A stretch of DNA of 64,000 bases, taken from Eledone cirrhosa. Lineage: Eukaryota. The translations under genes were made by a program, and so were the position numbers. Shown piece after piece: positions 2,659 through 62,956 of the stretch. The stretch's first letter is position 1. Each line of letters opens with the position of its first letter. The stretch covers positions 620,001 through 684,000 of the forward strand of contig OZ024746.1 in assembly GCA_964016885.1 (NCBI GenBank). Direction: 5' to 3'. Under the pieces are notes generated by a model. It saw only the letters and a list, made by a program, of their open reading frames with translations, was not told the origin of the DNA and made no database searches.

Positions 2659-3233
2659 TCTATATAAAGTAAGGGGCACACAGGACAAAATCAATGGAAA
2701 AGACAACGTAAAGACAGTCCACTCAGTCAGCCTCTGAAAAACTCTATAGTTTTGGTACATTAAGGTTGATATTGTGTTGATTGAGACATAACAGGTAGAG
2801 GCAATACCTTTAGGCAAATTACACAAATATAGAGTGTGCAAGGGTTTAGCCAAAAGAGAAAAATAATAAAACAGAAGAGAATAATAAGGACTGTTGTCCA
2901 ACATGTGGACAAAGAAGGATACTGAGGTGTAGAAAAGATAAGAAAGGAGGATGGGGGAAACAGGCCAGGTGATGTGACATATATATATAACGAAGGAGTT
3001 GTGGTAAGGAACCAGATGGACCATAATGCACCAGAGTACTCAATACTTAGGGTAGTAGAGTGGGTAATAGGAAAATGTATGACCTCGACGGCAGAGCTCA
3101 AGCTGTTTCGCCGGCTAATTCTGGACTAAATTAGAATTATTAGCCTGGCTAAAAATTCTAATATAGTCCAGAAACAGCCGGCGAAACGGCTTGAGCTCTG
3201 CCGTCGGGGTCATACATTTTCCTATATATATAT

Positions 3234-4740
3234 ATCATCATCATCATCATCGTTTAACGTCCATTTTCCACGCTAGCATGGGTCTGGGCAGGAATTGTCT
3301 CACTTGAGGCAAGATTGGTTGTCTTGCTCAGGACTGTCTGGCGGGTTTTCTACGGCTGGATGCCCTTCCTAACACCAACCACGTTTTCAGTGTGGACTGG
3401 GAGGTTTTTACCGTGTTACCTACACGGCCACATTACAGCGTGGACTGCGTGTTTTATTGTCGTGACACCTACACAACCTCATTTATTTGGGACTGGATGT
3501 TGTGGTACCAACATAGCTTTACATCAAAAGGGGTGGTGTAGATGGTGGTGGGGGTAGGGTTAGTGGGACGGGGGTGTATTTTGGTTAATAGGTGCCTACT
3601 GACTGTAGGTTTCGCTTTGTACTTATGCAAGGCGTAGCGCCAAAGCTCTCGGTCCAGTGACATTGTCTTGGAGAGGTGTAACATGAGCATCACATGACCA
3701 TACCAATGTAGTCTTCTCTCGAGTAAACAGCATCTGATCCCTCTTATTCCTAATTTCTCACTTAGTTCATTTATGCTTTGCCGTTCGCGTATATTACTAT
3801 TATGCATCCAACGGAGCATGCATGCTTCGTTCCTCTCCAGTCTGCGTAGATCCTCTGCACACAAGGCCCATGTCTTACTGCCATGTAACATCGCTGTTCG
3901 TATGCAGGCATATACAGCCTGCCTTTCATTTTTAGAGAGAAACCTTTAGCGGCCAATAGTGGTATAAGCTCTCTGAACTTTTTCCATCCTGTTCAGACTC
4001 TAGCTACAGTACTTTCAGAGCACCCTCCCCCACTGCTGATTTTGTCACCCAGGTAACGGAAGGTGTCCACTATTTCTATAGAACCATCTGGGCAATGGAA
4101 TGAGCTAGTATTCTGTGGGCATTTGCTGCTACTTATTGCACCAGAGCACTGGCCACATGTAAAATCTATATTCTTAGTTAGCTTACTTGTGATCCCACTA
4201 CATCTTTTATGCACTCATACTTTGCATTTGGGACATAAAATGGAGTTTCTGCCTACTCCTTTCCTACACACTGAGCATGGCCATTTCCCAGATGGGACCA
4301 GTGCCCTATTCTCCTTCCTACATATTAGGACTTTAGTCTTAGACAAGTTAACTTTAAGGCCTTTTGATTCTAGGCCATGCTTCCATGTTTGGAATTTCTT
4401 CTCTAGTTCGGCCATTGATTCGGCTATGAGCGTTAGATCATCTGCATTTAGGAGTTCCCATGGGCAGCCCATCTTCAACTTCTCTGTTATAGCCTGAAGG
4501 GCAATAATAAATAGTAGGGGGCTAAGAACGGAGCCCTGATGAACACCAACTTTTACGCTAAACTCTTCACTATATTCATTGTTAATTCTAACCTTGCTGG
4601 CTGTTTCTTTATACATAGCTTGTATAGCTCTCACAAGCCATTCATCTACACCTAGTTTTCTAAGAGCCCACCAGATAATGGAGCGGGGGACTCTGTCAAA
4701 GGCTTTCTCCAGGTCTACAAAAGCTAAGTAGAGGGGTTTA
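3234..4740 (-). mobile_element. RTE LINE 3' half, same family
   Basis: FVDLEKAFDRVP, VHQGSVLSPLLF, NADD, FRYLG, WYGHVM; 3' UTR and (CAT)n tail. Confidence 0.92.
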
Positions 4741-21046: not shown

Positions 21047-23597
21047 ATATTGTGTGTGCGTGTATGTGTGTAGGAAAGTGATTCCTTTAGTAGGAATATT
21101 TTTGAATGAACATATTTTCCTTACTTATTCGTGTTTGCTGTTGTATTGTCAGTGCAAACGTATGTTAAGGTTTATTTAGTTCGGGTTTTTATTTTCTAAA
21201 GTAGAAGGTGTTATGTGTGTGTGTGTATGTCATATTATGGTGTTGACATAATGTATATTAAACCTTATTTAATGTTGGTCTATATTTTTGAATAAACATA
21301 TTTTCCTTATTTATTCGCATTTGTTCTGTTGTATTGTTAGCGCAAAGGTAAAATGGGAAGACTTGGAATTTGGGTGTCTTATTACTTGCGCAAATGTCTA
21401 GATGTGCACTTAGTGGTATCTGTCTCGTGGTTGGATCTCGTAATTGTTGGCGATGAACTGTCATTCTGTTTCTGAGTGTGAGTTTAGTTTGTCCTATATA
21501 ATCTTCATTGCATCCTTTACATTTAATGGCATAAATTAGATTTTTTGATGAGCAAGTGAAGTGATTTTTTACAGTAAAATTTTGTCCTGATTTAAATGTA
21601 TACGTGTTGCCTTCAATGAGGTGAGTGCAGGTTCCACAATTAGAGCGACCACATTTTTTGATACTTGGTTGTGGGTTTGTGGTAGGTAATTTGGCATTGG
21701 TGAGTAATGTTTTCAGTGATTTTGGTTGTCTTTTGCTTTTGATTATTTTGTGTGTTTCAAGGGCTTTTTTCATTCTTGGGTTTTGTTTTAGTAGTGGGAT
21801 GTTATTGTGAATAGTGTTGTAAGCTTCCGCATTTCTTGGGTTGTGTGTTGAGATATATGATAGAATATTGGACGTACCTTGAATTTGTTTCTGTTTCCGT
21901 AATTCATCAATGCCTATTGCTTTAGCCCTTTCTATTCCATTATTTATTAGTAATAGTGGGTACTCTCTCTCGAGTAGAATTTCCTTTAATTATTGAAGTC
22001 TTTTATTTCGCGTTTCATAATTGGAGACAATTGTGCAAATTCTTCTTGCTAGGTTAAAAGGAATGTTCGTCTTCGTGTGCTTTGGATGGTTGGAGGTGAA
22101 TAGCAGATATTGTTTGGAATCTGTTGGTTTGTAGTGAATGTCAGTTTCGATATTTGTGTCTTTTTTTAAGATTAAGATGTCCAGAAATAGGAGTTGATCT
22201 TGGCTGTATTCCATTGTGAATTGGATGTGGTTATTGATGCCGTTTATTAAGTTTTTTGAAATCCTTCAGTTGGTCGAGTGTGTGGGACCAAAGAATGAGG
22301 CAATCATCCAAGTAGCGTTTCCAATTCTCTGATAAATATTTGTGGAAGTTCAATCCGTATTTTGATTTGGGCTGTTCATATATCTGGACTTCTAAGTATG
22401 CTATGACTAAGTTGGCATAAGTTGGAGCGGCTTTTGTACCCATCGCAGTCCCCGATATTTGCTTGTAAGTATTGCCATCGAAATCAAAAAAGTTGTTCTG
22501 TAGGATGAATTTTAATCCCTCGGTGATGAAGCTTTTTTCTATTCTGTCAGGTATCTCATTGGGATATTTCTCTAGCCAGAATCCTATTGCTTCTAGTCCG
22601 TATTGGTGTGGGATCGTTGTGTAGAGATTCACTACATCGAAAGACACAATAATAGTGTCATTGTTGACATGTTTGGGGAGGTGGTTTAAGAGGTCCAGAT
22701 CGTCTCTTACAAGGCTTGGTATGTGTTTCAGTATTGGTTTAAGTAGTATGTCTATAAAGTTGCTCAATCTGTGTGTTTCACATTGTGGGCCCGCTACAAT
22801 TGGTCTTAATTTAAGGTCTGTGGGGTATTGTGTGTTCACGCAGGCTGAGGTGGATTGTTTACAGGCATCGTTGATTATTTTACACTTGTGGATCTTCGGA
22901 AGTTCGTAAAGGTTGCTGGTTTTGTATTCAAAATTTGTTAAATAATCGCGTTCCTTTTTAGTTAGGTCTTCCTGGTATCGATAAATCAGTGTGTTTAATT
23001 TGGTCATTATTTTTGATTGCTGGTAGTTTTTTACTCTTTCATAGTAATTAGTATTTTGTAAGAGAGAGAACATAGAATTTTTATATTTTTCAGCCTCCAT
23101 AATGACAACAGTACTTCCCTTGTCCGCTTCCTTAATTATAATGTCCGTATTGTTTTTTAGTTCATGGATAATCTCCCATTCCCTTCAACTCGTGTTGGGT
23201 TTGGGTTTAGGTTGCGGTAGTTCATGGTATGGGAAGGTAGCTATGTGGTCACAAAATTTGTCCAGAACTCTGTTTCTACCTTTTGTTGGGTTGTAGCTGC
23301 TTTTATTCCGTACAATTGATTCATCGTTATTCTCCTTGTCAAAGAATTCCTCTGTGAGACGTAATTTTCTACAGAAGTGTGAGATATCGTCATTTATCTC
23401 GTTGGGGTTAGGGTATTGTGGTGTTGGTGTGATTTCAGACCTTTGGAGAGAATTTTTACTTGTTGGGCTGAGAGGGTTGTATTTGAAATGTTAATTATAT
23501 ATATATATAAGTGGTTACACAACAGTTAGTTCACCATACCGAGAACAATTGTTTCACCTTAGCGGATCCTCAGCTCGGATCTGATTCCGAGCTGATT

Positions 23598-29419: not shown

Positions 29420-30315
29420 AAATCGACCATATATATATATATCAGTTGGGAGGACTCTTCAGCTGTGCCATAGTTGTAACAACCTCCCTAGTGTTGGTGT
29501 CATGATAAAATATACTGTGTAGAGTCAGGTGGGGGGGGGGGGGGGTAACTGAGGGTTGGTAGCTCCACTTGAGTACTGACTCTAGCTGGGAAACATTGAT
29601 GTTGTTGATGGTAGTGATGATGACACAGACACACATATATATGTATACACACACATATACATATACACATATATATATATCATCATCATCGTTTAATGTC
29701 TATCTCCAACGCTAGCATGGGTTAGATGGGAGTTGTCCCACTTGAGGCAAGATTGGGAAGGTGACCGTGTCTCACTCGTATAGGACTATCTGGCAGGTTT
29801 TCTACAGATGCCCTTCCTAACACCAACTGCATTTACAGTGTGGACTGGGAGCATTTTTACCGTGTTACCTACACAACCACATTACAGCATATATATATAT
29901 ATAATATGTGTATATATATATATATATCAAAGTAGTCATTTTTTTAGTCATCTGAAATGTTTTGTAAACTCTGAAGTATTACTTAGTTATTAAACCTCTG
30001 TGTAAATAATCTGTTAACCCTATAATGTCTAAATTATCAATATATACAGAGACAAAACTGTTTTTTCTTAGCTTAAGTGTAAAGATTATGTTTGATATTA
30101 TAAATAAATCTTCTTATACATTTATACAGATAGATCATCATCATCATCATCACTACCACCATCACCATGATCATCATCATTACAATCATCATCATCACCG
30201 GAATTACTACTTTAAAGGGTGGACTGGGTGCTTCTTGTCATGGCACCAGAACTACCCCTTTACAGGATGCATTTGAGCTTGCTGCTCAGAGGACTTGATC
30301 CTTTTGATATATATA

Positions 30316-30914
30316 TAAATAAAAAAAGAAAATTTTCGCTCTACACGGCTGAATACAATAAATGTAATCTGAGTTTTTCGAATATTAATAACATTCGATT
30401 CGTTTGCAATTATGCAAACAAGCCTCAATTTTATAGCCATGTCAGTAGAATGAACCCTTCATTCTTGTTCTTGTGTTGGTATGTGAACACAACTGCAGAC
30501 ACTAATCTTTTTTATTTGAATTTGGCAAAGCCGGCCATTTATCGCTTGTATACAGGAAACTGACTGGCCAGTCTGCTGATATGCAAATTTGGCTGATCAG
30601 TGGATCTGCTAATGTGAAGACCTGACTGATCAACCAGTCTGCTAGTATGCAAATCAGGCTGATCAGTCACTGTATTTTTGAAAATAGCATATATTTTCAC
30701 TAGCTCTGACAAGTTTGGCACGTGAACAGTGAGCTGTACTGATGAAGGGTGATATCCAGAAACATTAGTGTCTGCAGTTCTGTTCACATGCCAACACAAG
30801 AGCAAGAATGAAGTGTTCATTCTACTGACATGGCTATAAAATTGAGGCTTGTTTACATAATTGCAAACGAATCGAATGTTATTATTAATATTCGAAAAAC
30901 TCAGATTACATTTA
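30316..30914 (+). mobile_element. Non-coding HHR-containing element (retrozyme-like, ~440-nt monomer) with inverted 5' arm
   Basis: 30363-30506 is the reverse complement of 30764-30911. Second copy at 61792-62201 in the opposite orientation. (TA)n flanks. No credible protein. Confidence 0.75.
30714..30794 (+). ncRNA. Type I hammerhead with extended, bulged stem I (retrozyme-like element)
   Basis: ttggcacgtgaaca-gt-gagctgta-CTGATGA-agggt(gat)atcca-GAA-acattagtgt-c-tgcagttc-tgttcacatgccaa. GUC site. Confidence 0.85.
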
Positions 30915-32240
30915 TATATATATATAAATATAAATTCAGCGAGAATCGTATTTCAGCTGGTAGAAAAAGCGAAACGAAACGCAAAATCGTAGAAATGCTG
31001 GCAAGCGCTCCAATAGTTAAGAAAACTAGAGCTAAACAATATGTTAAAACGCCATACAAACTGAAAAAGTGGTCAAGGCATTAACCACCTAAGCCAAAAA
31101 ACAAATCAAGCTAAACAGGTCAAAGAAAATAAATGATAAAAACGATGTATATATATATGTATGAATAGATATATATCTTATATATAAAGTGAAGTTGGGC
31201 GTTGTTTGTTTGTTTGGTGTCCTGAACTTGCAAGCTACACCGTTCATCCGATTTTCATGAAACTTGACACATATATAAAACTCGACCCGTAGATTGGAAT
31301 ATGCTACTTGAAAAAACGATAATCGGGCCCCCAGAAGCCAAAAATCGATATTTTCAAAAATCGTCCAATTTCGATGAAACTCGACGCAAGTGTGTATTTT
31401 GATCCGGGGATAAACGTGGGCTACATTAAATTTTCGATAATTGGATCACCAGAGGCAAAAATCGATATTTACGAAATTTGTCCGATTCCAATGAAATTTG
31501 ATGTAGGTATGTATTTTGATGCGGAGATCAGCCTGGGGTACTTGAAATTTAATAATCGGACCCCCAGATCCAAAAATCCGGCAACCGAAAAACGCCATTC
31601 TTCTTGCTTCCATTTGTCGCGACTCCCGCCATGCAAAAAAACGTTCAATCTATCAGGATTATCCACCGTAAGTCTCTTTAAATTAACGCTCACCATATTC
31701 AGCAAACCTTTTATGCCGATTCTTCCATTTCTTATATGAGGACTATCAAGACTATACCGCAGTGCATCATCCTGTATTGCGTCACACATACACACACAAA
31801 ACCAGTTCTAACACCAGATAACACCTAGCCCCCACTTTTACGATTAGACCTATCTTCCCACACTCACACACACACATACCTACACCTTCATGCTTTCTCC
31901 CACACACATATACAGGCACGCATATAAAATTTAAAAAACACAACAAAAACATAAACAAACCCCTCTTAAAGGGAGACTACTCTTTACCCACCTAATTTTA
32001 ATTCTTTGATATTAAAGTTAGAACTCTATACTATTTCCGGTCAGCATGGCTTCATTGGAAATTTAAGACGCTGGTCTGAGACTTTTACTTCCCTCCGAAG
32101 AAGAGATATTATCTCGAAAATTAAGGACATTTAAATAAATTCAAGGTGAAAGACGAATTCTCATCAATATCTCTCACTATTGCATTCTTTTTTCTATGTC
32201 CATATCTGCATTGTCTTGGCCTTATTACACATATTCTAAC

Positions 32241-38482: not shown

Positions 38483-39192
38483 ATATATATATATATATAT
38501 CATCATCATCATCATCATCATCATCATCGTTTAACGTCCATCTTCCACGCTAGCATGGGTTTGGACGGGAATTTTCCCACTTGAGGCAAGATTGGTTGTC
38601 TATATACAAGTTATATATATATATATAAATCAGGAAAGAAGGTTTACATGGTTTGCTATACAAAAAAGTTTTTAATCACATAGCTTACATTTGTTTCACT
38701 GAACTGGTATGTCTAGAGATCGCTATCCGCTTAATTTTGCATTACTCGATCGCCAATACAGAATTATAACCAGTCAGATCTTCGGAGCATGCGAGAATGA
38801 AGAAAATACACAGGCAAGAAAAGAAAAGAAAATACAGGCTACTATATGAAGTAGTAATGGCATTCAATTAGAACAATAACAACAATTACAACAATGCTAT
38901 CGATAAATTATTTAAGGAGACCCTGACATTACTTAGGTGGGGGTATATAATGTATCTAATGTAACGGCGTGAAAACTAGCTGTCATAAGGCAAAATGAAG
39001 CGTTGACATGTACAAAGTATCGTAGTGTATATCAATTTTAAATTATAAAGATAAGCTAGTTTTTACAGTCTTTCTCTTCATCTTCAACAGTATACATGAG
39101 TGGGACCACTGTCAAAGCTAAATAGTTGTATAGTTAATACAGAGGTTAACGAATTAATATACGCATATATTTACGTACACACACACACACAT

Positions 39193-39235
<43 letters not shown>

Positions 39236-40366
39236 CACATATATACACATGCATGTGTACATAGACACATACATACACATCAATATACACTCGTACAAAA
39301 ATATACATACATGCAAAGAGAAAAGCGTGCTAATTGTAATTATGGCAAAAAGAAGGTAAAGTAACATTGTAGTAGTGAAATGAGAAAAGCTAGGATTTAG
39401 GATCAAATGATTGCAGCAGCTGAGAAGGAGTAAGATTGTTGGTAGATGAGGTACTTACAGACAATTGTGTGGTATAGACTTGTGAAGGATATAGTATACT
39501 TAATGAATATATTTCTGTGGGTAGTAGGTATCCTAATTTAAAGCTATGTTATGTTGGTTCGATTCACGGAGGTTTGAATCTTATGAATTTAGTGGCTATT
39601 CTATGTCTGCAGAAGATAGATCTTTCTAACTTATTGTTAAGTAGCCTTTTAACATTTCTAAGGATATACAATAGCTCAAGATCACACAGCCCGCAATAGG
39701 ACATCCCTGTACTATAGGTTTTAGCAGCCGACAACTTCGACCAGTTGATACTGTAGTTAGTGTTGCTGTCCTTCAATTCCCATATTTTTCTGGCGAGGGT
39801 TGTGGAACCCATAAGTGCACGGTTTTTCATTGAGTGCCTGTGCACATACCATCTTTTCTTAAAAGAACCCGCGGTGGATCCTATGTAATTCCAGGTGGAG
39901 TTACCCGAGATGACAGTGCACATGTACACCAGGCTCGAATCGAGACATCTGTTCGCCAATGGGCACCTATCTGGGAGGTGACAGTTACAGTTTGAGGCGC
40001 TATTTTGTGCAGCTTTTACATTCCTGTTTAGTACTCTGTTATAAGTGGGTTGTGATATATGCCCAATGGGGTTTTGCTGCTGCGCGTTTGTATGCGCTTG
40101 TGGTTGTGATGTTGTGATGAGTTTGTGCTTATGTATAGGTGCAATTGATTTACTAGAGATATTTCTGTGGTTGATCTTGCGTATGTGTGATTCTATGTTA
40201 GCTGCTGTTGAGAATGAGAGTTTAATAGTAGATCTATTGAGTATTTTGTGATATCTATGCGAGATAGGGAAGTGTTTATCTATTAGTTTAAAGAATGTAG
40301 AGGGCAGTCTAGTTTTTATAGAGGAGTTGAATATTGGGTTGAACCATAGGTATTTTCTTTGTCTGT

Positions 40367-42322
40367 TTGACTCAACAAGGCGTTTTCACTACACTCACCA
40401 GCATTAACATGGAGGGCCTCAAGATAGTTAATAAACTCGGAATTTCAGATAGGACCGAACCGCTTACCCCGTGCAACCCTACATTTAACCTGAAGGATCA
40501 CAAAAATAACTTTGAAACTAATCCCACCATTAGATTAATATGCCCATCCAAGTCAGACATAGGTAAAATTAGCAAAAACATTCTAGATAGGGTAATCGCA
40601 CAAATAAAGGGTAAACTAGAAATCAATTTATGGGGCAACACTAACGAGGCAATTAAATGGTTCAATAAAATACAAAATAGGGAGACGTGTAACTTCATAC
40701 AATTTGATATAGACGACTATTATGCATCCATATCCCCAGCTACCCTAGATAAGGCGCTTATATTTGCCCAAAATAACTCTGATCTTACCCATGATGAAAT
40801 TGAAATAATAATAGCGGCTAGAAGGACTATCATAAAATTTGAAAATAACTACTGGGTAAGAAAGGATAGAATAAATAGCTTCGATATAACAATGGGATCA
40901 AATGATTCTGCGCAAATCACAGATATCGTGGGGCTATTCATAGCACACAACCTACATAAGGAATTCAGTAACCTCCAAGGAGGAATTTATAGGGACGACA
41001 CATTACTTATAGCTAGGAACCTAAACAACCAGAGCATGGAAAGACTAAGGAAAAATATTAGAAGATTCTTCAAAAAACTAGGCCTAAGTATTACCTACGA
41101 ACTAAACCATAAGAAGGTAAATTTTCTAGATGTAACTCTAAATCTAAATACTGGATTAATAGAACCTTTCCACAAAAATAATGAAAATCTTGCCTACATT
41201 AGTTACAACTCAAATCACCCCAAATCCATAATTAAATCCATAGCACGTAGTATATCCCTCCGAATATCCCGCTTATCCTCAAACCTAGAAATCTTTAACG
41301 AGCATGCTGACTATTATAATTTAGCATTACGTAGGGCCGGTCATAAAGATAAACTACAGTATATAGTGAATAAGGACAACATAAACAATCCTAGTAATCA
41401 CTACTCCAACCGCTCACATAATAATAGGAATAGCTTGACTAGACATAGGGTTAGACATGTAACACCTGGAGTAAACGGCCAAAACACTAATAACGTAAAC
41501 CCAAGAAACAATAGAAGAAACAGACAAAGAAAATACCTATGGTTCAACCCAATATTCAACTCCTCTATAAAAACTAGACTGCCCTCTACATTCTTTAAAC
41601 TAATAGATAAACACTTCCCTATCTCGCATAGATATCACAAAATACTCAATAGATCTACTATTAAACTCTCATTCTCAACAGCAGCTAACATAGAATCACA
41701 CATACGCAAGATCAACCACAGAAATATCTCTAGTAAATCAATTGCACCTATACATAAGCACAAACTCATCACAACATCACAACCACAAGCGCATACAAAC
41801 GCGCAGCAGCAAAACCCCATTGGGCATATATCACAACCCACTTATAACAGAGTACTAAACAGGAATGTAAAAGCTGCACAAAATAGCGCCTCAAACTGTA
41901 ACTGTCACCTCCCAGATAGGTGCCCATTGGCGAACAGATGTCTCGATTCGAGCCTGGTGTACATGTGCACTGTCATCTCGGGTAACTCCACCTGGAATTA
42001 CATAGGATCCACCGCGGGTTCTTTTAAGAAAAGATGGTATGTGCACAGGCACTCAATGAAAAACCGTGCACTTATGGGTTCCACCACCCTCGCCAGAAAA
42101 ATATGGGAATTGAAGGACAGCAACACTAACTACAGTATCAACTGGTCGAAGTTGTCGGCTGCTAAAACCTATAGTACAGGGATGTCCTATTGCGGGCTGT
42201 GTGATCTTGAGCTATTGTATATCCTTAGAAATGTTAAAAGGCTACTTAACAATAAGTTAGAAAGATCTATCTTCTGCAGACATAGAATTGCCACTAAATT
42301 CATAAGATTCAAACCTCCGTGA
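40367..42322 (+). CDS. PLE reverse transcriptase + GIY-YIG endonuclease, N-terminally truncated, 651 open codons
   Basis: RT motifs QFDIDDYY, MGSNDSAQI, IYRDD, NFLDV. EN motifs LVYMCTV...NYIGST with CNC-x5-CP-x4-C, CGLC and CRH. No true ATG; the ORF starts at the inversion junction. Confidence 0.9.
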   Translation: MTQQGVFTTLTSINMEGLKIVNKLGISDRTEPLTPCNPTFNLKDHKNNFETNPTIRLICPSKSDIGKISKNILDRVIAQIKGKLEINLWGNTNEAIKWFNKIQNRETCNFIQFDIDDYYASISPATLDKALIFAQNNSDLTHDEIEIIIAARRTIIKFENNYWVRKDRINSFDITMGSNDSAQITDIVGLFIAHNLHKEFSNLQGGIYRDDTLLIARNLNNQSMERLRKNIRRFFKKLGLSITYELNHKKVNFLDVTLNLNTGLIEPFHKNNENLAYISYNSNHPKSIIKSIARSISLRISRLSSNLEIFNEHADYYNLALRRAGHKDKLQYIVNKDNINNPSNHYSNRSHNNRNSLTRHRVRHVTPGVNGQNTNNVNPRNNRRNRQRKYLWFNPIFNSSIKTRLPSTFFKLIDKHFPISHRYHKILNRSTIKLSFSTAANIESHIRKINHRNISSKSIAPIHKHKLITTSQPQAHTNAQQQNPIGHISQPTYNRVLNRNVKAAQNSASNCNCHLPDRCPLANRCLDSSLVYMCTVISGNSTWNYIGSTAGSFKKRWYVHRHSMKNRALMGSTTLARKIWELKDSNTNYSINWSKLSAAKTYSTGMSYCGLCDLELLYILRNVKRLLNNKLERSIFCRHRIATKFIRFKPP

Positions 42323-42642
42323 ATCGAACCAACATAACATAGCTTTAAATTAGGATACCTACTACCCACAGAAATATATTCATTAAGTATACTATATCCT
42401 TCACAAGTCTATACCACACAATTGTCTGTAAGTACCTCATCTACCAACAATCTTACTCCTTCTCAGCTGCTGCAATCATTTGATCCTAAATCCTAGCTTT
42501 TCTCATTTCACTACTACAATGTTACTTTACCTTCTTTTTGCCATAATTACAATTAGCACGCTTTTCTCTTTGCATGTATGTATATTTTTGTACGAGTGTA
42601 TATTGATGTGTATGTATGTGTCTATGTACACATGCATGTGTA

Positions 42643-42693
<51 letters not shown>

Positions 42694-43083
42694 ATGTGTG
42701 TGTGTGTGTACGTAAATATATGCGTATATTAATTCGTTAACCTCTGTATTAACTCTACATCTATTTAGCTTTGACAGTGGTCCCACTCATGTATACTGTT
42801 GAAGATGAAGAGAAAGACTGTAAAAACTAGCTTATCTTTATAATTTAAAATTGATATACACTACGATACTTTGTACATGTCAACGCTTCATTTTGCCTTA
42901 TGACAGCTAGTTTTCACGCCGTTACATTAGATACATTATATACCCCCACCTAAGTAATGTCAGGGTCTCCTTAAATAATTTATCGATAGCATTGTTGTAA
43001 TTGTTCTAATTGAATGCCATTACTACTTCATATAGTAGCCTGTATTTTCTTTTCTTTTCTTGCCTGTGTATTTTCTTCATTCT

Positions 43084-43200
43084 CGCATGCTCCGAAGATC
43101 TGACTGGTTATAATTCTGTATTGGCGATCGAGTAACGCGAAATTAAGCGGATAGCGATCTCTAGACATACCAGTTCAGTGAAATAAATGTAAGCTATGTG
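43084..43200 (+). ncRNA. Hammerhead of the Naiad-type PLE, CCGAAGA core, ~80-nt stem II domain (mirror copy 38677-38793, minus)
   Basis: cgcatgct-CCGAAGA-tctgactggt...accagttcagt-GAA-a(c/t)aaatgt-a-agctatgtg. Confidence 0.7.
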
Positions 43201-43246
43201 ATTAAAAACTTTTTTGTATAGCAAACCATGTAAACCTTCTTTCCTG

Positions 43247-55920: not shown

Positions 55921-57189
55921 TTAATTTAATGTGTTCATATTTATCTAAAAACGTTCCAATATAATTTTATGGAAGAACCTTTCTCAGCACCAACTTAATA
56001 ATGAGAAGGTTAGTTACATTATAACATTTCTCCAAATTTTTGATTATTTTCAAAATGCGTAACTATTTCAATTATTTATTAAGTTGTCATAATTAATTAC
56101 ATAAATAATGAAAAGGGAGGAAAGGGTAAAGAAGGGCAGATCTGGTTGTATAGGAAAGTTAAGGAAGGAACTATAAATGCCATAAATGAGAAGAAAAGGA
56201 GGGAAAGAGGAAGGACTATTAGGCAACAAAAGAAAATGAGGAGGAAGGAGAGAGAATGACAGGCTTGAAAATGATAGGTAGTGTCTTTCATTTGAAATGT
56301 TGTGATGAAAGGGTTAAATAATTTTGAGAGATTATTTTAAAATTATTTTCTATAATCTTGTAATCTTGCTTCAAATGTTGTACTATACATGCACCTTTGA
56401 TGAGTAGTAGTGCACCTGAGCACTGTACACAATAATTTTCCTTATCATTATCATATATATATATATATATAATTGTATATAGAGAATGTTAACTCATTAT
56501 GATCATATTTCTAACAAGAGAATACTTCGTTTGTATTTTAATTATTAAAATTATCAAGAACTACGAGAGATTTACTGAAATAACAATCTCTCAATAATAA
56601 TAAAAGACAAATATTTAACAAGTAAAATCTATTAACTTTAATAATGAGATTTCAATCCAAGATTTGATTTTAAATTTGAACAGTGTAATAAGAGGTGGGC
56701 ATGTGTGAGTTGGTGTTTAGAGGGTTAAACATATATGACCTTGTGATATTTAAGCCAATAATTATAGAAAATATTCCTCATTATTGACATAACTGATATA
56801 ATATAATCATAGAAAAGATAAACATAATTTATCTGTAGAAAATCAGAAGATAGTTCTGGCATGAAGTAAAAATTATGTTCAAATATTTTGAACACATAAG
56901 AAATACAATTTCAAAAATGTTTTGATAAATCCAGCAAAACTGTTGATTTTTTTAATTAGAAACTAGCTGAGCCTTTCAAAATTTCTGATGGGTCCTTCTA
57001 TAAAATGAAACAACTGAATCAGCTAAATCCCTATTGTGATATATTTGTATGTGGTTCACGGTTGAGAGAAAACAGCACTCAATACCAGAGTAAAGTTAGT
57101 TTTAATATTCATTTAAGACCCTGAGATAAAGAGGCAAAACTCCAGAGTAACAATACTCACTATTTAGCCATAATATATATATATATATA

Positions 57190-59260
57190 CATTTCCCTAG
57201 AACACATAGATACTATAAGATCTTCAATAGAAACTGTGTCAAAATTAGCTACTCCTGCGGTCCCCCTATTAAATCTTATATCCTCAATAAGAAAACACCC
57301 AGAGAACATCAAAATTGCTCCTGTAGAGTCAAAAGTGAATGCCCATTACAAGGTAAATGCAACACCAAAGCCATTGTATATGCAGCTAAAGTGACAACCA
57401 TCAGCAACAACCAACCAGCCACCAGCGAACGATATGTGGGTATGACACAAGACAAATTCAAAACGTGTTATTACTCACATGTCGCATCTTTCCGACATCC
57501 TGAAAAAAGATTTACAACAGCTCTGGCTAGCAGAATATGGGATTTGAAAGACCAAGGTATCCAATATAAATTGGATTGGTCAATTTTGAACCAATCTAAA
57601 GAATATGCAAGAGGAACAAGAAGATGCACACTCTGCATAAGTGAAAAATATTGGATTTTACAGAATCTTAAATCACCAAAAACCTGCCTAAATACAAAAA
57701 CAGAAATTTTCACCAGTTGCCCACACATGAAATCACACTTGCTTTCCAGCTCATATAAACTTAACTCACTTTCAGATACTTATCCTCCATAAACTCTTGT
57801 TCTTCACTTTCCTTTAATTATCCTCTTTACAGACTTCTCTTTCTGATTTATTTTTAACTTTATTTTTATTTATTTTTACTTCACATCCACCAGTGACCCC
57901 CCTCCCCCTACTTTTTGATTCACTTACCTAATATTTTCACAATTCCACATTTTACTTCCCCATTTTCTTTCACTACCTGTTATCACATGTCATTTGCGTT
58001 TTCTACTCCAGATATATTCTGTTGCTTCGCAGCCGCTTTTATATTTGTACTCATTTATTCATACGGCTGGTTTATAATTTGTATCTATGTGTGTGAGTGT
58101 GCATGTGTGTGTATGCGTTCTGTATATGTATACGAACGCCTCCGTATGTGTGCATGTGTGTGCATATATGTGTGTGTATGTGTGTTTTTATATCTATGTT
58201 TTTTACATACTTATATATACGTGTGTGTGTGTATGGGTGAATGTATGTGTATATGCATGTATATATATATGTATGTGTATGTATGTGTGTATATGTATAT
58301 ATATATAGTCGCGTACGTACGTGCGATTAGATATACATGTGCCGATATATATATATATGTGCTTCGTGTGTATATATGCGCGCCTCTGTATGTATGTACG
58401 CATGTATGTGCTTTTGTCTGTACGTATTTATATATATATATTTTTATATATAGTGTGTATGTACGAACCTATGTTTGTTTTCTTTTTTTCTAGTGTTAAT
58501 TTATAATTGATAACCCCTCCCTCTTACTTTCTCTTTGATTTAAACATTTTTATTCTCTTACATTGTTTCATTTTTATATGTATCGAGTCTCAGACTGACA
58601 CCACTGTGGCTGATAGACTCCCTTCCTCTATATACCACTCGCATGTGTGTGATCGCGCGTGTGTGTGTGTTTATACGCGGGCTTTCATACTTGTCATCAT
58701 CATCATCATCATCATTTTACGTCCGCTTTTCCCTGCTTGCAAGGGTGGGACGGGTCTTATTCAGCACAGCATCTCTCCACTCGTCACGGTCCCTCGTATG
58801 TGTGTATATTTCATTCCTTAATACCTGTATCTGGATGGACGTTAACTCTATTATCTTTCAATTCCTTTTTCAACATATATTATATACGTATTTGTGGTCA
58901 CACATACACTGATATGCTTGCCCTCATATATGTACTTATGCACATATTTTTTCACTATACACATGCATTTGTATATACACACATATGTACATTTGTGAGT
59001 GAATATACACACATTTATACACATACCCTAACTATATTTCCTTATTATTTTTTTTTAGATATCTCTTGCATTACTTTTATTTATATTTTTTTTGCCCGTT
59101 AAACTTTGCCTTTCTTGAGGAGATTTTTCAAATATTTCACTATGTTTTAAATTGCCTTATCCGACAAATGAATGAGGACGTTTTTCGTATTCGTCTTATT
59201 CGGGAAACCTCTGGTAATGAGGTAATTATATTGTATTGTTTATTATACATTATATATATA
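57190..59260 (+). mobile_element. PLE 3' fragment (Naiad-type endonuclease plus pseudo-LTR)
   Basis: Encodes CSCRVKSECPLQGKC..IVYAAKV..YVGMT..CTLC..CPH, homologous to the C-terminus of ORF 40367-42322. Degenerate HHR at 59150-59227. (TA)n on both sides. Confidence 0.85.
59150..59227 (+). ncRNA. Degenerate hammerhead in PLE pseudo-LTR
   Basis: aattgccttat-CCGACAA-atgaatgaggacg...cgtcttattcgg-GAA-acctctggt-a-atgaggtaatt. 11-bp stem I, but G8 is changed to A. Confidence 0.6.
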
Positions 59261-61635: not shown

Positions 61636-61791
61636 TTATATATATATTTGTTCTGACGAAAAAACTTTGATAAACAAATGAATAATGAAAAATAAAGATA
61701 AAGTGAAAATTGTATGGTGTGTTTCTTTCTATTAGAAATATTGGCAACATAAACATCTCTAAATATAACAAAATATATATATATATGTAAA

Positions 61792-62201
61792 GTGAGTTTT
61801 TCGAATATTAATAACATTCGATTTGTTTGCAATTATGCAAACAAGCCCCAATTTTATAGCCATGTCAGTAGAATGAACACTTCATTCTTGCTCTTGTGTT
61901 GGTATGCGAACAGAACTACAAACACTAATATTTCTGGGTATCACCCTTCATCAGTACAGCTCACTGTTCACCTGCCAAACTTGTCAGAGCTAGTGAAAAT
62001 ATATGCTATTTTCAAAAATACAGTGACTGATCAGCCTGATTTGCATACTAGCAGACTGGTTGATCAGTCAGGTCTGCATATTAGCAGATCCACTGATCAG
62101 CCAGATTTGCATATCAGCAGACTGGCCAGTCAGTTTCCTGTATACAAGCGATAAATGGCCGGCTTTGCCAAATTCAAATAAAAAAGAAAATTTCACTCTA
62201 C
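61792..62201 (-). mobile_element. Second copy of the ~440-nt retrozyme-like element
   Basis: Highly similar reverse complement of 30507-30903, including the HHR and the internal ~33-bp repeats. Confidence 0.75.
61899..61978 (-). ncRNA. Second copy of the extended type I hammerhead
   Basis: Minus strand: gagctgta-CTGATGA-agggt(gat)accca-GAA-atattagtgt-t-tgtagttc. Confidence 0.8.
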
Positions 62202-62460: not shown

Positions 62461-62615
62461 CTTATCAAAACAATTAAAACCTCCATGAAGACAGTTTGGT
62501 GGACTGTTTACATCTAACTTGTATGTGATTCCATCAATCGTAAACTTCCCATTTGCAATTCTGCCAGCCACTCTACCGATTACTCCGCCAATGTATAGAT
62601 TCTGATCTTCATACC
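62461..62615 (-). CDS. GALM: Galactose mutarotase (aldose 1-epimerase) exon, equivalent to human GALM exon 2
   Basis: Reverse strand reads ctag|GG TAT... = (G)YEDQNLYIGGVIGRVAGRIANGKFTIDGITYKLDVNSPPNCLHGGFNCFDK|gtatgt. Has the GRVAxRI and LHGG motifs. 155 bp, AG/GT bounded. Not in the ORF track. Confidence 0.95.
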
Positions 62616-62956
62616 CTAGCAGAGCAATGGAAAATCACAATGATGATAAAAACCATTTGTTAAATATGATTCTTTTACTTTCAACCATCCAGTTTAACAG
62701 TTCCTATTTAGGTATCTAACAGGTTTTATCTCTTTTTATATCAAAATCCCTGAAACTACCCCTGGTTCTATGATACTAAACGATTATCCTTTTCATGAGC
62801 ACATTTCTAATGAAATACATTCTATTTCAATTAATTAATGAAGAATTTTAAGGGTTTTACTAAAATTATTAATTATTTCACTACTAACATAGTAACTTAA
62901 TGTAAGGTTCTTATATAAAATTATGTTGGAAGATTTTAATTTAAATTGGAAACCTT

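What the first reader, a model, noticed from the sequence alone, without database searches (positions are those of the whole stretch)
30316..30914. Candidate cephalopod retrozyme: circularly permuted ~440-nt non-coding monomer with an extended type I hammerhead
Seen: a canonical core (CUGAUGA/GAAA/GUC, 30731-30780). Stem I continues past a 2-nt bulge for ~14 more bp (ttggcacgtgaaca/tgttcacatgccaa). The element recurs at 61792-62201 in reverse. One end of that copy (caaataaaaaagaaaatttcactctac) is found at 30316-30345 running directly into sequence matching its other end (..tgtaatctgagtttttcg). End and start are therefore joined, as expected for a tandem or circular template. Known: non-LTR retrozymes of metazoans are small non-coding monomers with a type I HHR that form circRNAs and are thought to be mobilised by PLE proteins. 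Inference: this is such an element, moved in trans by the PLE machinery present in this genome. I do not know of a description of this family, but cannot search.
Basis: partly seen in the sequence, partly recalled or inferred. Interest (0 to 1): 0.85.

Follow-up and report, generated by a model that had tools for sequence, protein, structure and literature searches.

The report
Self-cutting RNA parasite of Penelope elements
A 440-base non-coding repeat with a hammerhead-ribozyme motif is scattered through this animal genome with the insertion marks of Penelope-like retrotransposons, so it is likely a retrozyme copied from RNA, probably a circle, by their enzyme; the kind is known, but a younger sister family in the same genome gives unusually direct DNA evidence for that unproven cycle.

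Summary
30317-30915 is one insertion of a 440-nt non-coding repeat (F1) with a type I hammerhead (predicted cut after 30772). The locus is not a randomly permuted monomer. It is a two-armed Penelope-type insertion into (TA)n: an inverted, 5'-truncated arm carrying the 'tail', then a forward unit without tail. In 105 loci the units run head to tail (up to about 3), end at two fixed sites, and none of the 5' flanks tested continues in sense into a Penelope-type ORF. Pieces within one locus share variants about five times more often than pieces from different loci. A young sister family (465 nt) has insertions of up to 19.5 near-identical units whose locus-wide variants are mostly A-to-G, as expected if one ADAR-edited circle was read many times; F1 itself shows no such bias. 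All three families found carry the genome's U6-type promoter element 80-100 nt before the ribozyme core. Young, intact Hydra-clade Penelope elements leave the same marks and are the likeliest helpers, but share no detectable sequence with F1. Cleavage, transcription and circles are untested. Verdict: a new family of animal non-LTR retrozymes, in a good system for testing the model.

The parts
30307..30316 (.). Left (TA)n target remnant
   Evidence: Sequence; 67 of 86 loci have at least one end running into a TA run
30317..30357 (-).
   Evidence: tail on exactly one end in 24 of 31 two-ended insertions
30358..30510 (-). Inverted, 5'-truncated arm (about m272-m427); holds only the 3' half of the ribozyme
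   Evidence: 94% identical over 156 nt to 30760-30915
30506..30915 (+). Forward unit (about m19-m427), ending without tail at ATTTAT
   Evidence: 95.5% identical to the second copy
30568..30667 (+). Three 33-nt internal repeats, each an octamer-like word plus an ATCAG word; the middle one is decayed in this copy
   Evidence: Internal 34-nt match 30568-30601 with 30634-30667
30646..30657 (+). U6-type upstream promoter element TATGCAAATCAG (predicted function)
   Evidence: Score 14.7 on a matrix from this genome's Pol III genes; 1 of 125,792 background positions reaches 14
30662..30674 (+). RTCAGTNNNTNTA word, like the -56 to -59 element of U1/U2/U5 genes (predicted)
   Evidence: Best site in the unit, score 10.3, 1 of 300 shuffles; but 8 of 145 window tiles score as high, two of them the element's own copies
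30688..30695 (+). TATA-like word; predicted transcription start about 30719-30721
   Evidence: Position relative to the octamer word kept in three families; the start site is inferred
30715..30794 (+). Extended type I hammerhead: stem I 8 bp + GU bulge + 14 bp, stem II with A.A first pair, 3-bp stem III with UUAG loop, predicted cut after 30772
30895..30908 (+). 3'-box-like word AAAAACTCAGATTA (weak; not kept in sister families)
   Evidence: Score 11.0, about 0.04 expected per 440 nt at score 10; F2 0.7, F3 4.7
30916..30927 (.). Right (TA)n target remnant
61781..62201 (-). Second, solo copy (m1-m427), tailless end into TA; its cleavage triplet reads GUU; it starts 260 nt 3' of an aldose 1-epimerase exon on the same strand

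Best explanation
This is a non-coding, hammerhead-bearing 440-nt repeat that lies in head-to-tail and inverted copies in TA repeats and is likely a retrozyme, copied from RNA, probably a circular monomer, by the reverse transcriptase-endonuclease of a Penelope-like element. Proposed cycle. (1) Inferred: an snRNA-type promoter inside one unit starts transcription about 50 nt before its cut site and reads through the next unit. Pol II is favoured because T-runs would stop Pol III before a full unit. (2) Predicted: two hammerheads cut out a 440-nt monomer, which a host ligase closes. (3) Inferred from published PLE biochemistry: the PLE protein nicks both strands of a (TA)n target and starts reverse transcription internally at two fixed sites about 35 nt apart, one per strand, giving two arms with the tail on one. 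(4) Shown as DNA structure: the result runs past the unit junction for up to about 3 units and stops at variable points. The likeliest helper is a Hydra-clade PLE (inferred). The window copy has one whole ribozyme and is a dead-end product.
For: Structure: head-to-tail units, median 1.55 and maximum 3.1 units of element per locus in 104 loci. Fixed ends: two classes running into TA; tail on exactly one end in 24 of 31 two-ended insertions. This matches the PLE description in PMC8557442 and the two internal start sites shown in vitro in PMC11167929. No body: of 242 pieces in 105 loci, the 5' neighbour is an inverted arm (106), the previous unit (88), a TA run (9) or other (39); the 39 flanks give one PLE protein hit, antisense. 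Same template twice: non-CpG minority alleles shared within a locus, 82 vs 13.9 expected (tandem) and 58 vs 12.2 (inverted). Sister family F3 (32 loci): up to 19.5 units; 18 of 21 two-armed loci have one short and one tailed end; 12 of 21 distinct locus-wide variants are A>G against 1 T>C, versus 5 of 57 single-unit variants (p = 2e-5); none has a 5' G neighbour and 7 of 12 have a 3' G. Circular fold of a natural F1 unit z = -8.3. Promoter word TATGCAAATYRG lies 80-100 nt before the core in F1, F2 and F3, and a matching word lies at -77 to -80 in 7 of 8 Pol III-type loci. Helper candidate: 3.5-kb PLE with intact 808-codon frames, RWK/DKT/CxCX5C motifs of the Hydra clade, TA target, ATTTAT end, one-sided tail and inverted arm.
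Against: No RNA data. The A.A pair at the base of stem II may make F1 a weak ribozyme, and in the Xenopus preprint only 1 of 9 tested retrozymes cleaved. F1 shows no A>G bias among shared rare variants (2 of 30 vs 66 of 606), so the editing evidence comes from a sister family, and 9 of its 12 sites occur in one locus. F1 pieces within a locus sometimes differ at diagnostic sites (m354: 6 tandem pairs with one minor allele, 9 with both), more than age alone seems to explain, so some templates may have been mixed linear multimers. F1 5' junctions are spread over m265-310 rather than fixed at the cut. F1-F3 similarity is not significant alone (score 32, shuffle maximum 49); the link runs through F2 (53 and 203). 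No sequence is shared with the candidate helpers. Some F3 and F2 arrays show a 4-unit higher-order period, so DNA-level amplification also occurs.
Confidence: 0.8

Rival explanations
1. Non-autonomous PLE derivative copied from linear read-through transcripts of genomic tandems. No circle is needed and the ribozyme is a passenger.
For: Hammerhead mutants did not affect PLE insertion in vitro (PMC11167929). F1 copies are short (maximum 3.1 units) and sometimes heteromeric. The stem II base pair is A.A. No editing bias in F1.
Against: Within-locus allele sharing is 5-6 times the expectation. In F3, private variants, mostly A>G, sit in every unit of both arms of 15- to 18-unit insertions, which a linear multimer would not give unless its source array had itself come from one edited monomer. 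This rival shares the PLE-mobilised part of the best explanation and differs only on the template.
Confidence: 0.13
2. The unit is the 3' pseudo-LTR of an unseen coding PLE, seen only as 5'-truncated relics.
For: Fixed 3' ends, tail and inversions are those of coding PLEs. PLE protein hits lie within 1.5 kb in 7 of 88 loci. In L006 the tail abuts a Hydra-type endonuclease fragment in sense. Xenopus retrozymes resemble pseudo-LTRs.
Against: Copies that extend upstream of the unit start continue into another unit (88 pieces), and no sense ORF hit was found in the 39 other flanks. The L006 fragment starts mid-domain and is rearranged; four other neighbours inspected are separated by TA runs or other sequence (5 of the 7 inspected). 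An F1 profile finds no homology in the termini of the PLE loci sampled (66 loci, 20). The genome was not searched exhaustively.
Confidence: 0.04
3. A MITE or other DNA-level element with terminal inverted repeats that inserts at TA, or a satellite amplified only by recombination.
For: The window copy has about 150-nt inverted ends and TA flanks. Some sister arrays show higher-order periods.
Against: Inverted arms vary from under 50 to over 400 nt and many copies lack them. The two ends differ by the tail. 5' ends are truncated at variable points. The strand-specific A>G signature in F3 points to an RNA stage.
Confidence: 0.03

Closest known systems
Animal non-LTR retrozymes (Cervera and de la Pena 2020, PMC7229834; Li, Clavereau and Pollet 2026, bioRxiv 10.64898/2026.07.22.740005); mussel 350-390-bp and axolotl 330/350-bp repeats
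   Same: Non-coding 150-450-bp tandem unit, one type I hammerhead per unit, low GC (0.39), highly self-paired predicted circle, coexistence with PLEs. Axolotl HHR_Amex2 also has a mismatch (U.U) at the base of helix II.
   Different: Circles and cleavage were shown there and not here. A review states that metazoan retrozymes seem to lack promoters (PMC7761336); this one carries a predicted snRNA-type promoter. Xenopus families resemble PLE pseudo-LTRs; no such homology was found here. The two-armed, one-tailed insertions into (TA)n were not described for retrozymes in the passages I read.
Newt satellite 2 (Coats, Zhang and Epstein 1994, seen only as cited in PMC2220036) and Schistosoma hammerhead repeats (as reviewed in PMC6765202)
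   Same: Hammerhead repeat with an internal promoter, so that the upstream unit transcribes the next. The newt promoter is snRNA-type and uses Pol II.
   Different: No sequence comparison was made. The promoter here mixes this genome's Pol III-type octamer word with a Pol II-type word, at a TATA spacing 3-4 nt shorter than in U6. The Schistosoma repeats use a Pol III promoter.
Penelope-like elements: Hydra clade and non-autonomous Chlamys elements such as MRC1 (Craig et al. 2021, PMC8557442); Poseidon from Anolis (Frangieh et al. 2024, PMC11167929)
   Same: Partial tandems, inverted 5'-truncated arm, 30-40-bp tail at one end, (TA)n target; the tail equals the stretch between two internal RT start sites.
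   Different: No ORF. Non-autonomous Chlamys elements generally share their 3' end with an autonomous family; F1 shares at most the terminal ATTTAT with the Hydra family tested.

Membership tests
Animal non-LTR retrozyme | Type I hammerhead in each unit | tested here: met
   Core and stems I-III present; A.A at the base of stem II; no Rfam model match
Animal non-LTR retrozyme | Short (150-450 bp), non-coding, GC below 50% | tested here: met
   440 nt, GC 0.39; the antisense stop-free frame is open over 110 codons in only 11 of 83 full units
Animal non-LTR retrozyme | Head-to-tail repeats with at least two consecutive complete ribozymes | tested here: met
   18 of 86 loci hold two intact cores one unit apart (the set is enriched for long copies). 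Not met by the window locus itself.
Animal non-LTR retrozyme | No LTR, primer-binding site or 4-bp target duplication | tested here: inconclusive
   No separate internal body or LTR pair; target duplications cannot be read inside (TA)n; a primer-binding site was not searched for
Animal non-LTR retrozyme | Self-cleavage of the transcript | not testable with these tools
   Needs in vitro transcription
Animal non-LTR retrozyme | Expressed as linear and circular monomer RNA | not testable with these tools
   No run on record as RNA was listed; indirect DNA evidence only
Non-autonomous Penelope-like element | Partial tandems, inverted 5'-truncated arm, 30-40-bp tail at one end, microsatellite target | tested here: met
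Non-autonomous Penelope-like element | Sequence similarity to the 3' end or pseudo-LTR of an autonomous family | tested here: inconclusive
   None found in the sampled PLE loci; best terminal match reached by 30 of 725 null ends, one of 24 comparisons; only a few PLE families were sampled
Coding PLE (pseudo-LTR of an autonomous element) | RT and GIY-YIG ORF joined to the repeat | tested here: not met
   No sense-strand ORF hit at the 39 unclassified 5' flanks among 242 pieces in 105 loci
MITE / class II element | Fixed, symmetrical terminal inverted repeats | tested here: not met
   Arms vary in length or are absent; ends differ by the tail
snRNA-type (SNAPc-class) transcription unit | Upstream element and TATA at the spacing of the host's snRNA genes | tested here: inconclusive
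   Words match; octamer-to-TATA spacing is 42-45 nt against 46-48 in the U6-type genes, counted by hand; start site not mapped

The most novel reading that the evidence does not exclude
These are self-promoting retrozymes: each unit carries a captured snRNA-type promoter just before its ribozyme, so any insertion with two ribozymes is a circular-RNA gene. Hydra-clade Penelope proteins prime internally on the circle from both strands of a TA target and roll round it up to about 20 times, writing ADAR-edited RNA molecules back into the germline genome.
Probability: 0.45. Interest if true: 0.8.

Novelty: new member of a known kind. Interest (0 to 1): 0.58.

Why it matters
The retrozyme model (tandem transcript, double self-cleavage, circle, reverse transcription by a borrowed enzyme) is published as a hypothesis: the helper is called 'a strong candidate' and the circle a possible template (PMC7229834). 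This genome holds three related non-coding families of different ages with complete PLE insertion marks, a young intact Hydra-clade element with the same marks, and, in the youngest family, insertions that look like one edited molecule copied 15 or more times. That names a protein, a template, two start sites and a target for one in vitro assay of a kind already set up for another PLE (PMC11167929). The predicted internal promoter bears on the statement that metazoan retrozymes seem to lack promoters (PMC7761336). The window locus by itself is an ordinary dead copy of an older family.

Tried and rejected
Rfam: no hammerhead family matched the window, the locus at E up to 10, or three loci of F1-F3 at gathering score. 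RNA evidence: no RNA holder listed; the four runs laid were contigs of unknown kind and cannot show strand, ends or level, so they are no evidence on expression. ADAR signature in F1: absent. Exact start of copies at the cleavage site: 1 of 33 junction rows in m262-310 starts at m285, the rest are spread, so stalling in stem I explains the cluster as well as a cleaved 5' end. Helper assignment by sequence: no profile hit in PLE termini; terminal 45-nt comparisons not convincing after 24 tests, the best being F3 tailless end against the Hydra tailed end, 4 of 725 null ends. Position-specific differences between upstream and downstream units, expected from a fixed heterodimer master: only 3 columns at p < 0.01, each with scattered letters. 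Antisense ORF of 133-137 codons in both window copies: not conserved. A SINE-containing master copy: rejected, since the SINE inserts differ in length and unit. A search for long F1 arrays used a query cut in the wrong orientation that included TA flank, so it is a weak test; the longest found was about 3 units. Pol III as the polymerase for full units: T-runs of 5-9 nt inside each unit argue against it, although the tailed end of F1 falls in such a run. The 3'-box-like word is not conserved in F2 or F3. Nine fetched U6 regions lacked the start motif and were dropped, and one U6 and five U6atac hits were set aside as probable retrocopies.

Full report
Observation. The locus has more structure than reported. 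Reading left to right there is a TA run, a 41-nt stretch (30317-30357, minus strand) that is the start of the unit, an inverted copy of the unit's last 150 nt (30358-30510), a forward unit lacking its first 18 nt or so (30506-30915), and a TA run. Positions m1-m440 below count on the natural unit of locus L016, with CUGAUGA at m251 and the cut after m284. The base of stem II is A.A in nearly all copies, where hammerheads usually have a G-C pair (recalled), and no Rfam model matches.

The family (F1). The window lies in a 3.0-Gb genome. Searches gave 2,934 to 3,850 first-look candidates, which are not copy numbers. I examined 105 loci, taken from the top of four searches and so biased towards well-preserved and long copies; two duplicates and one re-fetched locus were left out. 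Main units differ by 3.4% on average from the column majority (59 units). Element content per locus has a median of 1.55 and a maximum of 3.1 units (104 loci scored). Of 242 pieces, the 5' neighbour is an inverted arm in 106, the preceding unit in 88, a TA run in 9 and something else in 39. Those 39 flanks give one PLE protein hit, on the antisense strand. The unit is therefore self-contained: its end is followed by its own start. PLE fragments lie within 1.5 kb in 7 of 88 loci; in the five inspected they look like separate neighbours, with L006 the one case where a fragment abuts the tail in sense.

Insertion pattern. Ends run into (TA)n at two places, about 10-15 and about 44-51 nt after AGATTAC. 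Among 31 loci with such ends on both strands, 24 have one tailed and one tailless end, 3 are mixed, 3 score as two tails and 1 as none. Craig et al. describe this pattern for PLEs: partial tandems, an inverted 5'-truncated copy, and a 30-40-bp tail often at one end only (PMC8557442, passages). Frangieh et al. showed in vitro that a PLE protein cleaves and extends both target strands and starts reverse transcription inside the RNA at two sites, the tail being the stretch between them (PMC11167929, parts 1-2 of 4). Internal initiation also means the template needs no 3' end, so a circle can serve (inference).

Was the template a circle? In F1, pieces of one locus share non-CpG minority alleles far more often than pieces from different loci: 82 against 13.9 expected for 79 tandem pairs, and 58 against 12.2 for 88 inverted pairs. 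Agreement is incomplete at diagnostic sites, rare shared variants show no A>G excess, and 5' junctions are spread through the ribozyme rather than fixed at the cut. F1 alone thus shows repeated copying of like units but does not prove circles.

Sister families. A profile of F1 and a motif scan turned up two more hammerhead repeats, F2 (about 420-440 nt) and F3 (465 nt). F2-F3 and F1-F2 align above all 200 shuffles; F1-F3 do not. F3 is very young. In 32 loci it reaches 19.5 units, and 18 of 21 two-armed loci have one end at unit position 258-263 and the other at 331-332 (my count). Variants present in every unit of a locus are A>G at 12 of 21 distinct sites and T>C at 1, whereas single-unit variants are A>G in 5 of 57; none of the 12 has a 5' G and 7 have a 3' G, which is the neighbour preference of ADAR (recalled). 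Nine of the 12 occur in L245, a 15.5-unit insertion in which both arms carry the same nine changes; eight are private to it. L339 and L354 each carry one private A>G in all units. The simplest reading is that one edited monomer was read many times from both target strands. Four-unit periods in some arrays show that DNA-level amplification also happens. This evidence is indirect for F1.

Promoter. I compared the unit with this genome's snRNA genes. Seven of eight Pol III-type loci (three U6, U6atac, MRP, two tRNA-Sec) have TATG(C/G)(A/T)AAT(T/G)AG at -77 to -80 and a TATA box near -30; RNase P does not. F1, F2 and F3 carry this word 80-100 nt before the core, with scores 13.9-14.7; 1 of 125,792 background positions reaches 14. 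It is the longest block identical across the three families in the alignment. Fourteen distinct U1, U2 and U5 promoters share RTCAGTNNNTNTA at -56 to -59, and F1's best match lies 16 nt after the start of the octamer word (1 of 300 shuffles, but 8 of 145 window tiles score as well, two being the element itself). Both registers put the start near 30719-30721, about 50 nt before the cut. A promoter there lets an upstream unit transcribe a full cut-to-cut monomer of the next, as reviewed for Schistosoma and newt repeats (PMC6765202, passages; PMC2220036, passages citing Coats 1994, which I did not read). T-runs inside the units argue for Pol II. All of this is prediction from sequence.

Helper. 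The window holds a PLE at 40343-43246 whose family has many near-identical copies, several with 808-codon open frames. It has the RWK, DKT and CxCX5C motifs that define the Hydra clade, which targets (TA)n (PMC8557442 section 11). Its insertions end in ATTTAT then (AT)n, or carry a 171-nt tail on the other arm, the same pattern as F1. A second related family has its own tailed and tailless ends in TA. Naiads also target (TA)n and are listed for Octopus in that paper's supplement but are said to be long inactive in cephalopods. No shared sequence ties F1 to any of these. The young family suits F3 in age; F1 may have used an older relative (inference).

Comparison with the literature. The element fits animal non-LTR retrozymes as defined in PMC7229834 (parts 2-3 of 6, Discussion and passages) and the 2026 preprint (parts 1-3 of 5), which covered 31 vertebrates and four invertebrates and no mollusc. 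Nine full-text searches returned no description of a cephalopod retrozyme, of edited retrozyme insertions or of this promoter; I saw most hits only as listings. The library lacks most subscription papers and Repbase, and the supplement of PMC7229834 could not be read, so the family may be catalogued elsewhere.

Verdict. Shown: the DNA structures and statistics above. Inferred: RNA intermediate and PLE mobilisation (strong), circular template (moderate for F1, stronger for F3), internal promoter (moderate), Hydra-clade helper (moderate). Untested: cleavage, expression, circles.

Noticed in passing
L245 (G000:C3:287408505-287415713) and other F3 loci L246-L258, L339-L356: Very young 465-nt hammerhead family with two-armed insertions of up to 19.5 near-identical units; L245 carries nine A>G changes in all 15.5 units. 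Deserves its own study.
   Followed up: yes
L207:2774-3100 (-), L229-L244, L259-L262: Third hammerhead family F2 (about 420-440 nt, U.U at the base of stem II), arrays of 10 or more units, some with a 4-unit period.
   Followed up: partly
window 38631-43246: Young Hydra-clade PLE in an inverted two-armed insertion; intact 808-codon copies elsewhere (L177-L181); its hammerhead-like motif reads CCGAAGA and has a very long stem II; its tail is 171 nt, far above the usual 30-40.
   Followed up: partly
L002, L005, L011, L014, L015, L026, L047, L048 at m393: One SINE family (3' end AGTAGAAACAATT) has inserted independently, with different 5' truncations, at the same short TTA run of the retrozyme; it also sits in promoters of the U6 array (L067, L072).
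   Followed up: partly
L267:1257-1625: An inverted F1 fragment (m125-368) is fused directly to the 5' end of a full-length U6atac retrocopy, suggesting one enzyme copied both RNAs into one site.
   Followed up: no
L061-L063, L073-L106, L263, L358-L361: Promoter grammar of this genome's snRNA genes: Pol II genes have AATTAA near -88, RTCAGT at -57, a TATA-like word and a 3' box AAAA(A/T)CAGA; Pol III genes have TATGCAAAT(T/G)AG at -77 to -80 and TATA. The RNase P RNA gene has the Pol II-type word instead.
   Followed up: partly
window 785, 1077 (-), 23573 (-), 23603, 33937, 46482: Further type I hammerhead-like motifs of other repeat families, several with palindromic stem III.
   Followed up: no
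window 62461-62616 (-): Exon of an aldose 1-epimerase gene (Pfam PF01263, E 2e-14); the second F1 copy lies just 3' of it in sense, probably in the intron.
   Followed up: partly
F1 columns m12, m192, m326, m354, m370: Recurrent T/A polymorphism, with three common letters at m326; could reflect hypermutable sites or misreading of modified RNA bases. Unexplained.
   Followed up: no
window 21258-23184 (-) and 57151-57792 (+): Two more PLE relics: an RT plus GIY-YIG element of another clade and a fragment of a second Hydra-like family.
   Followed up: partly
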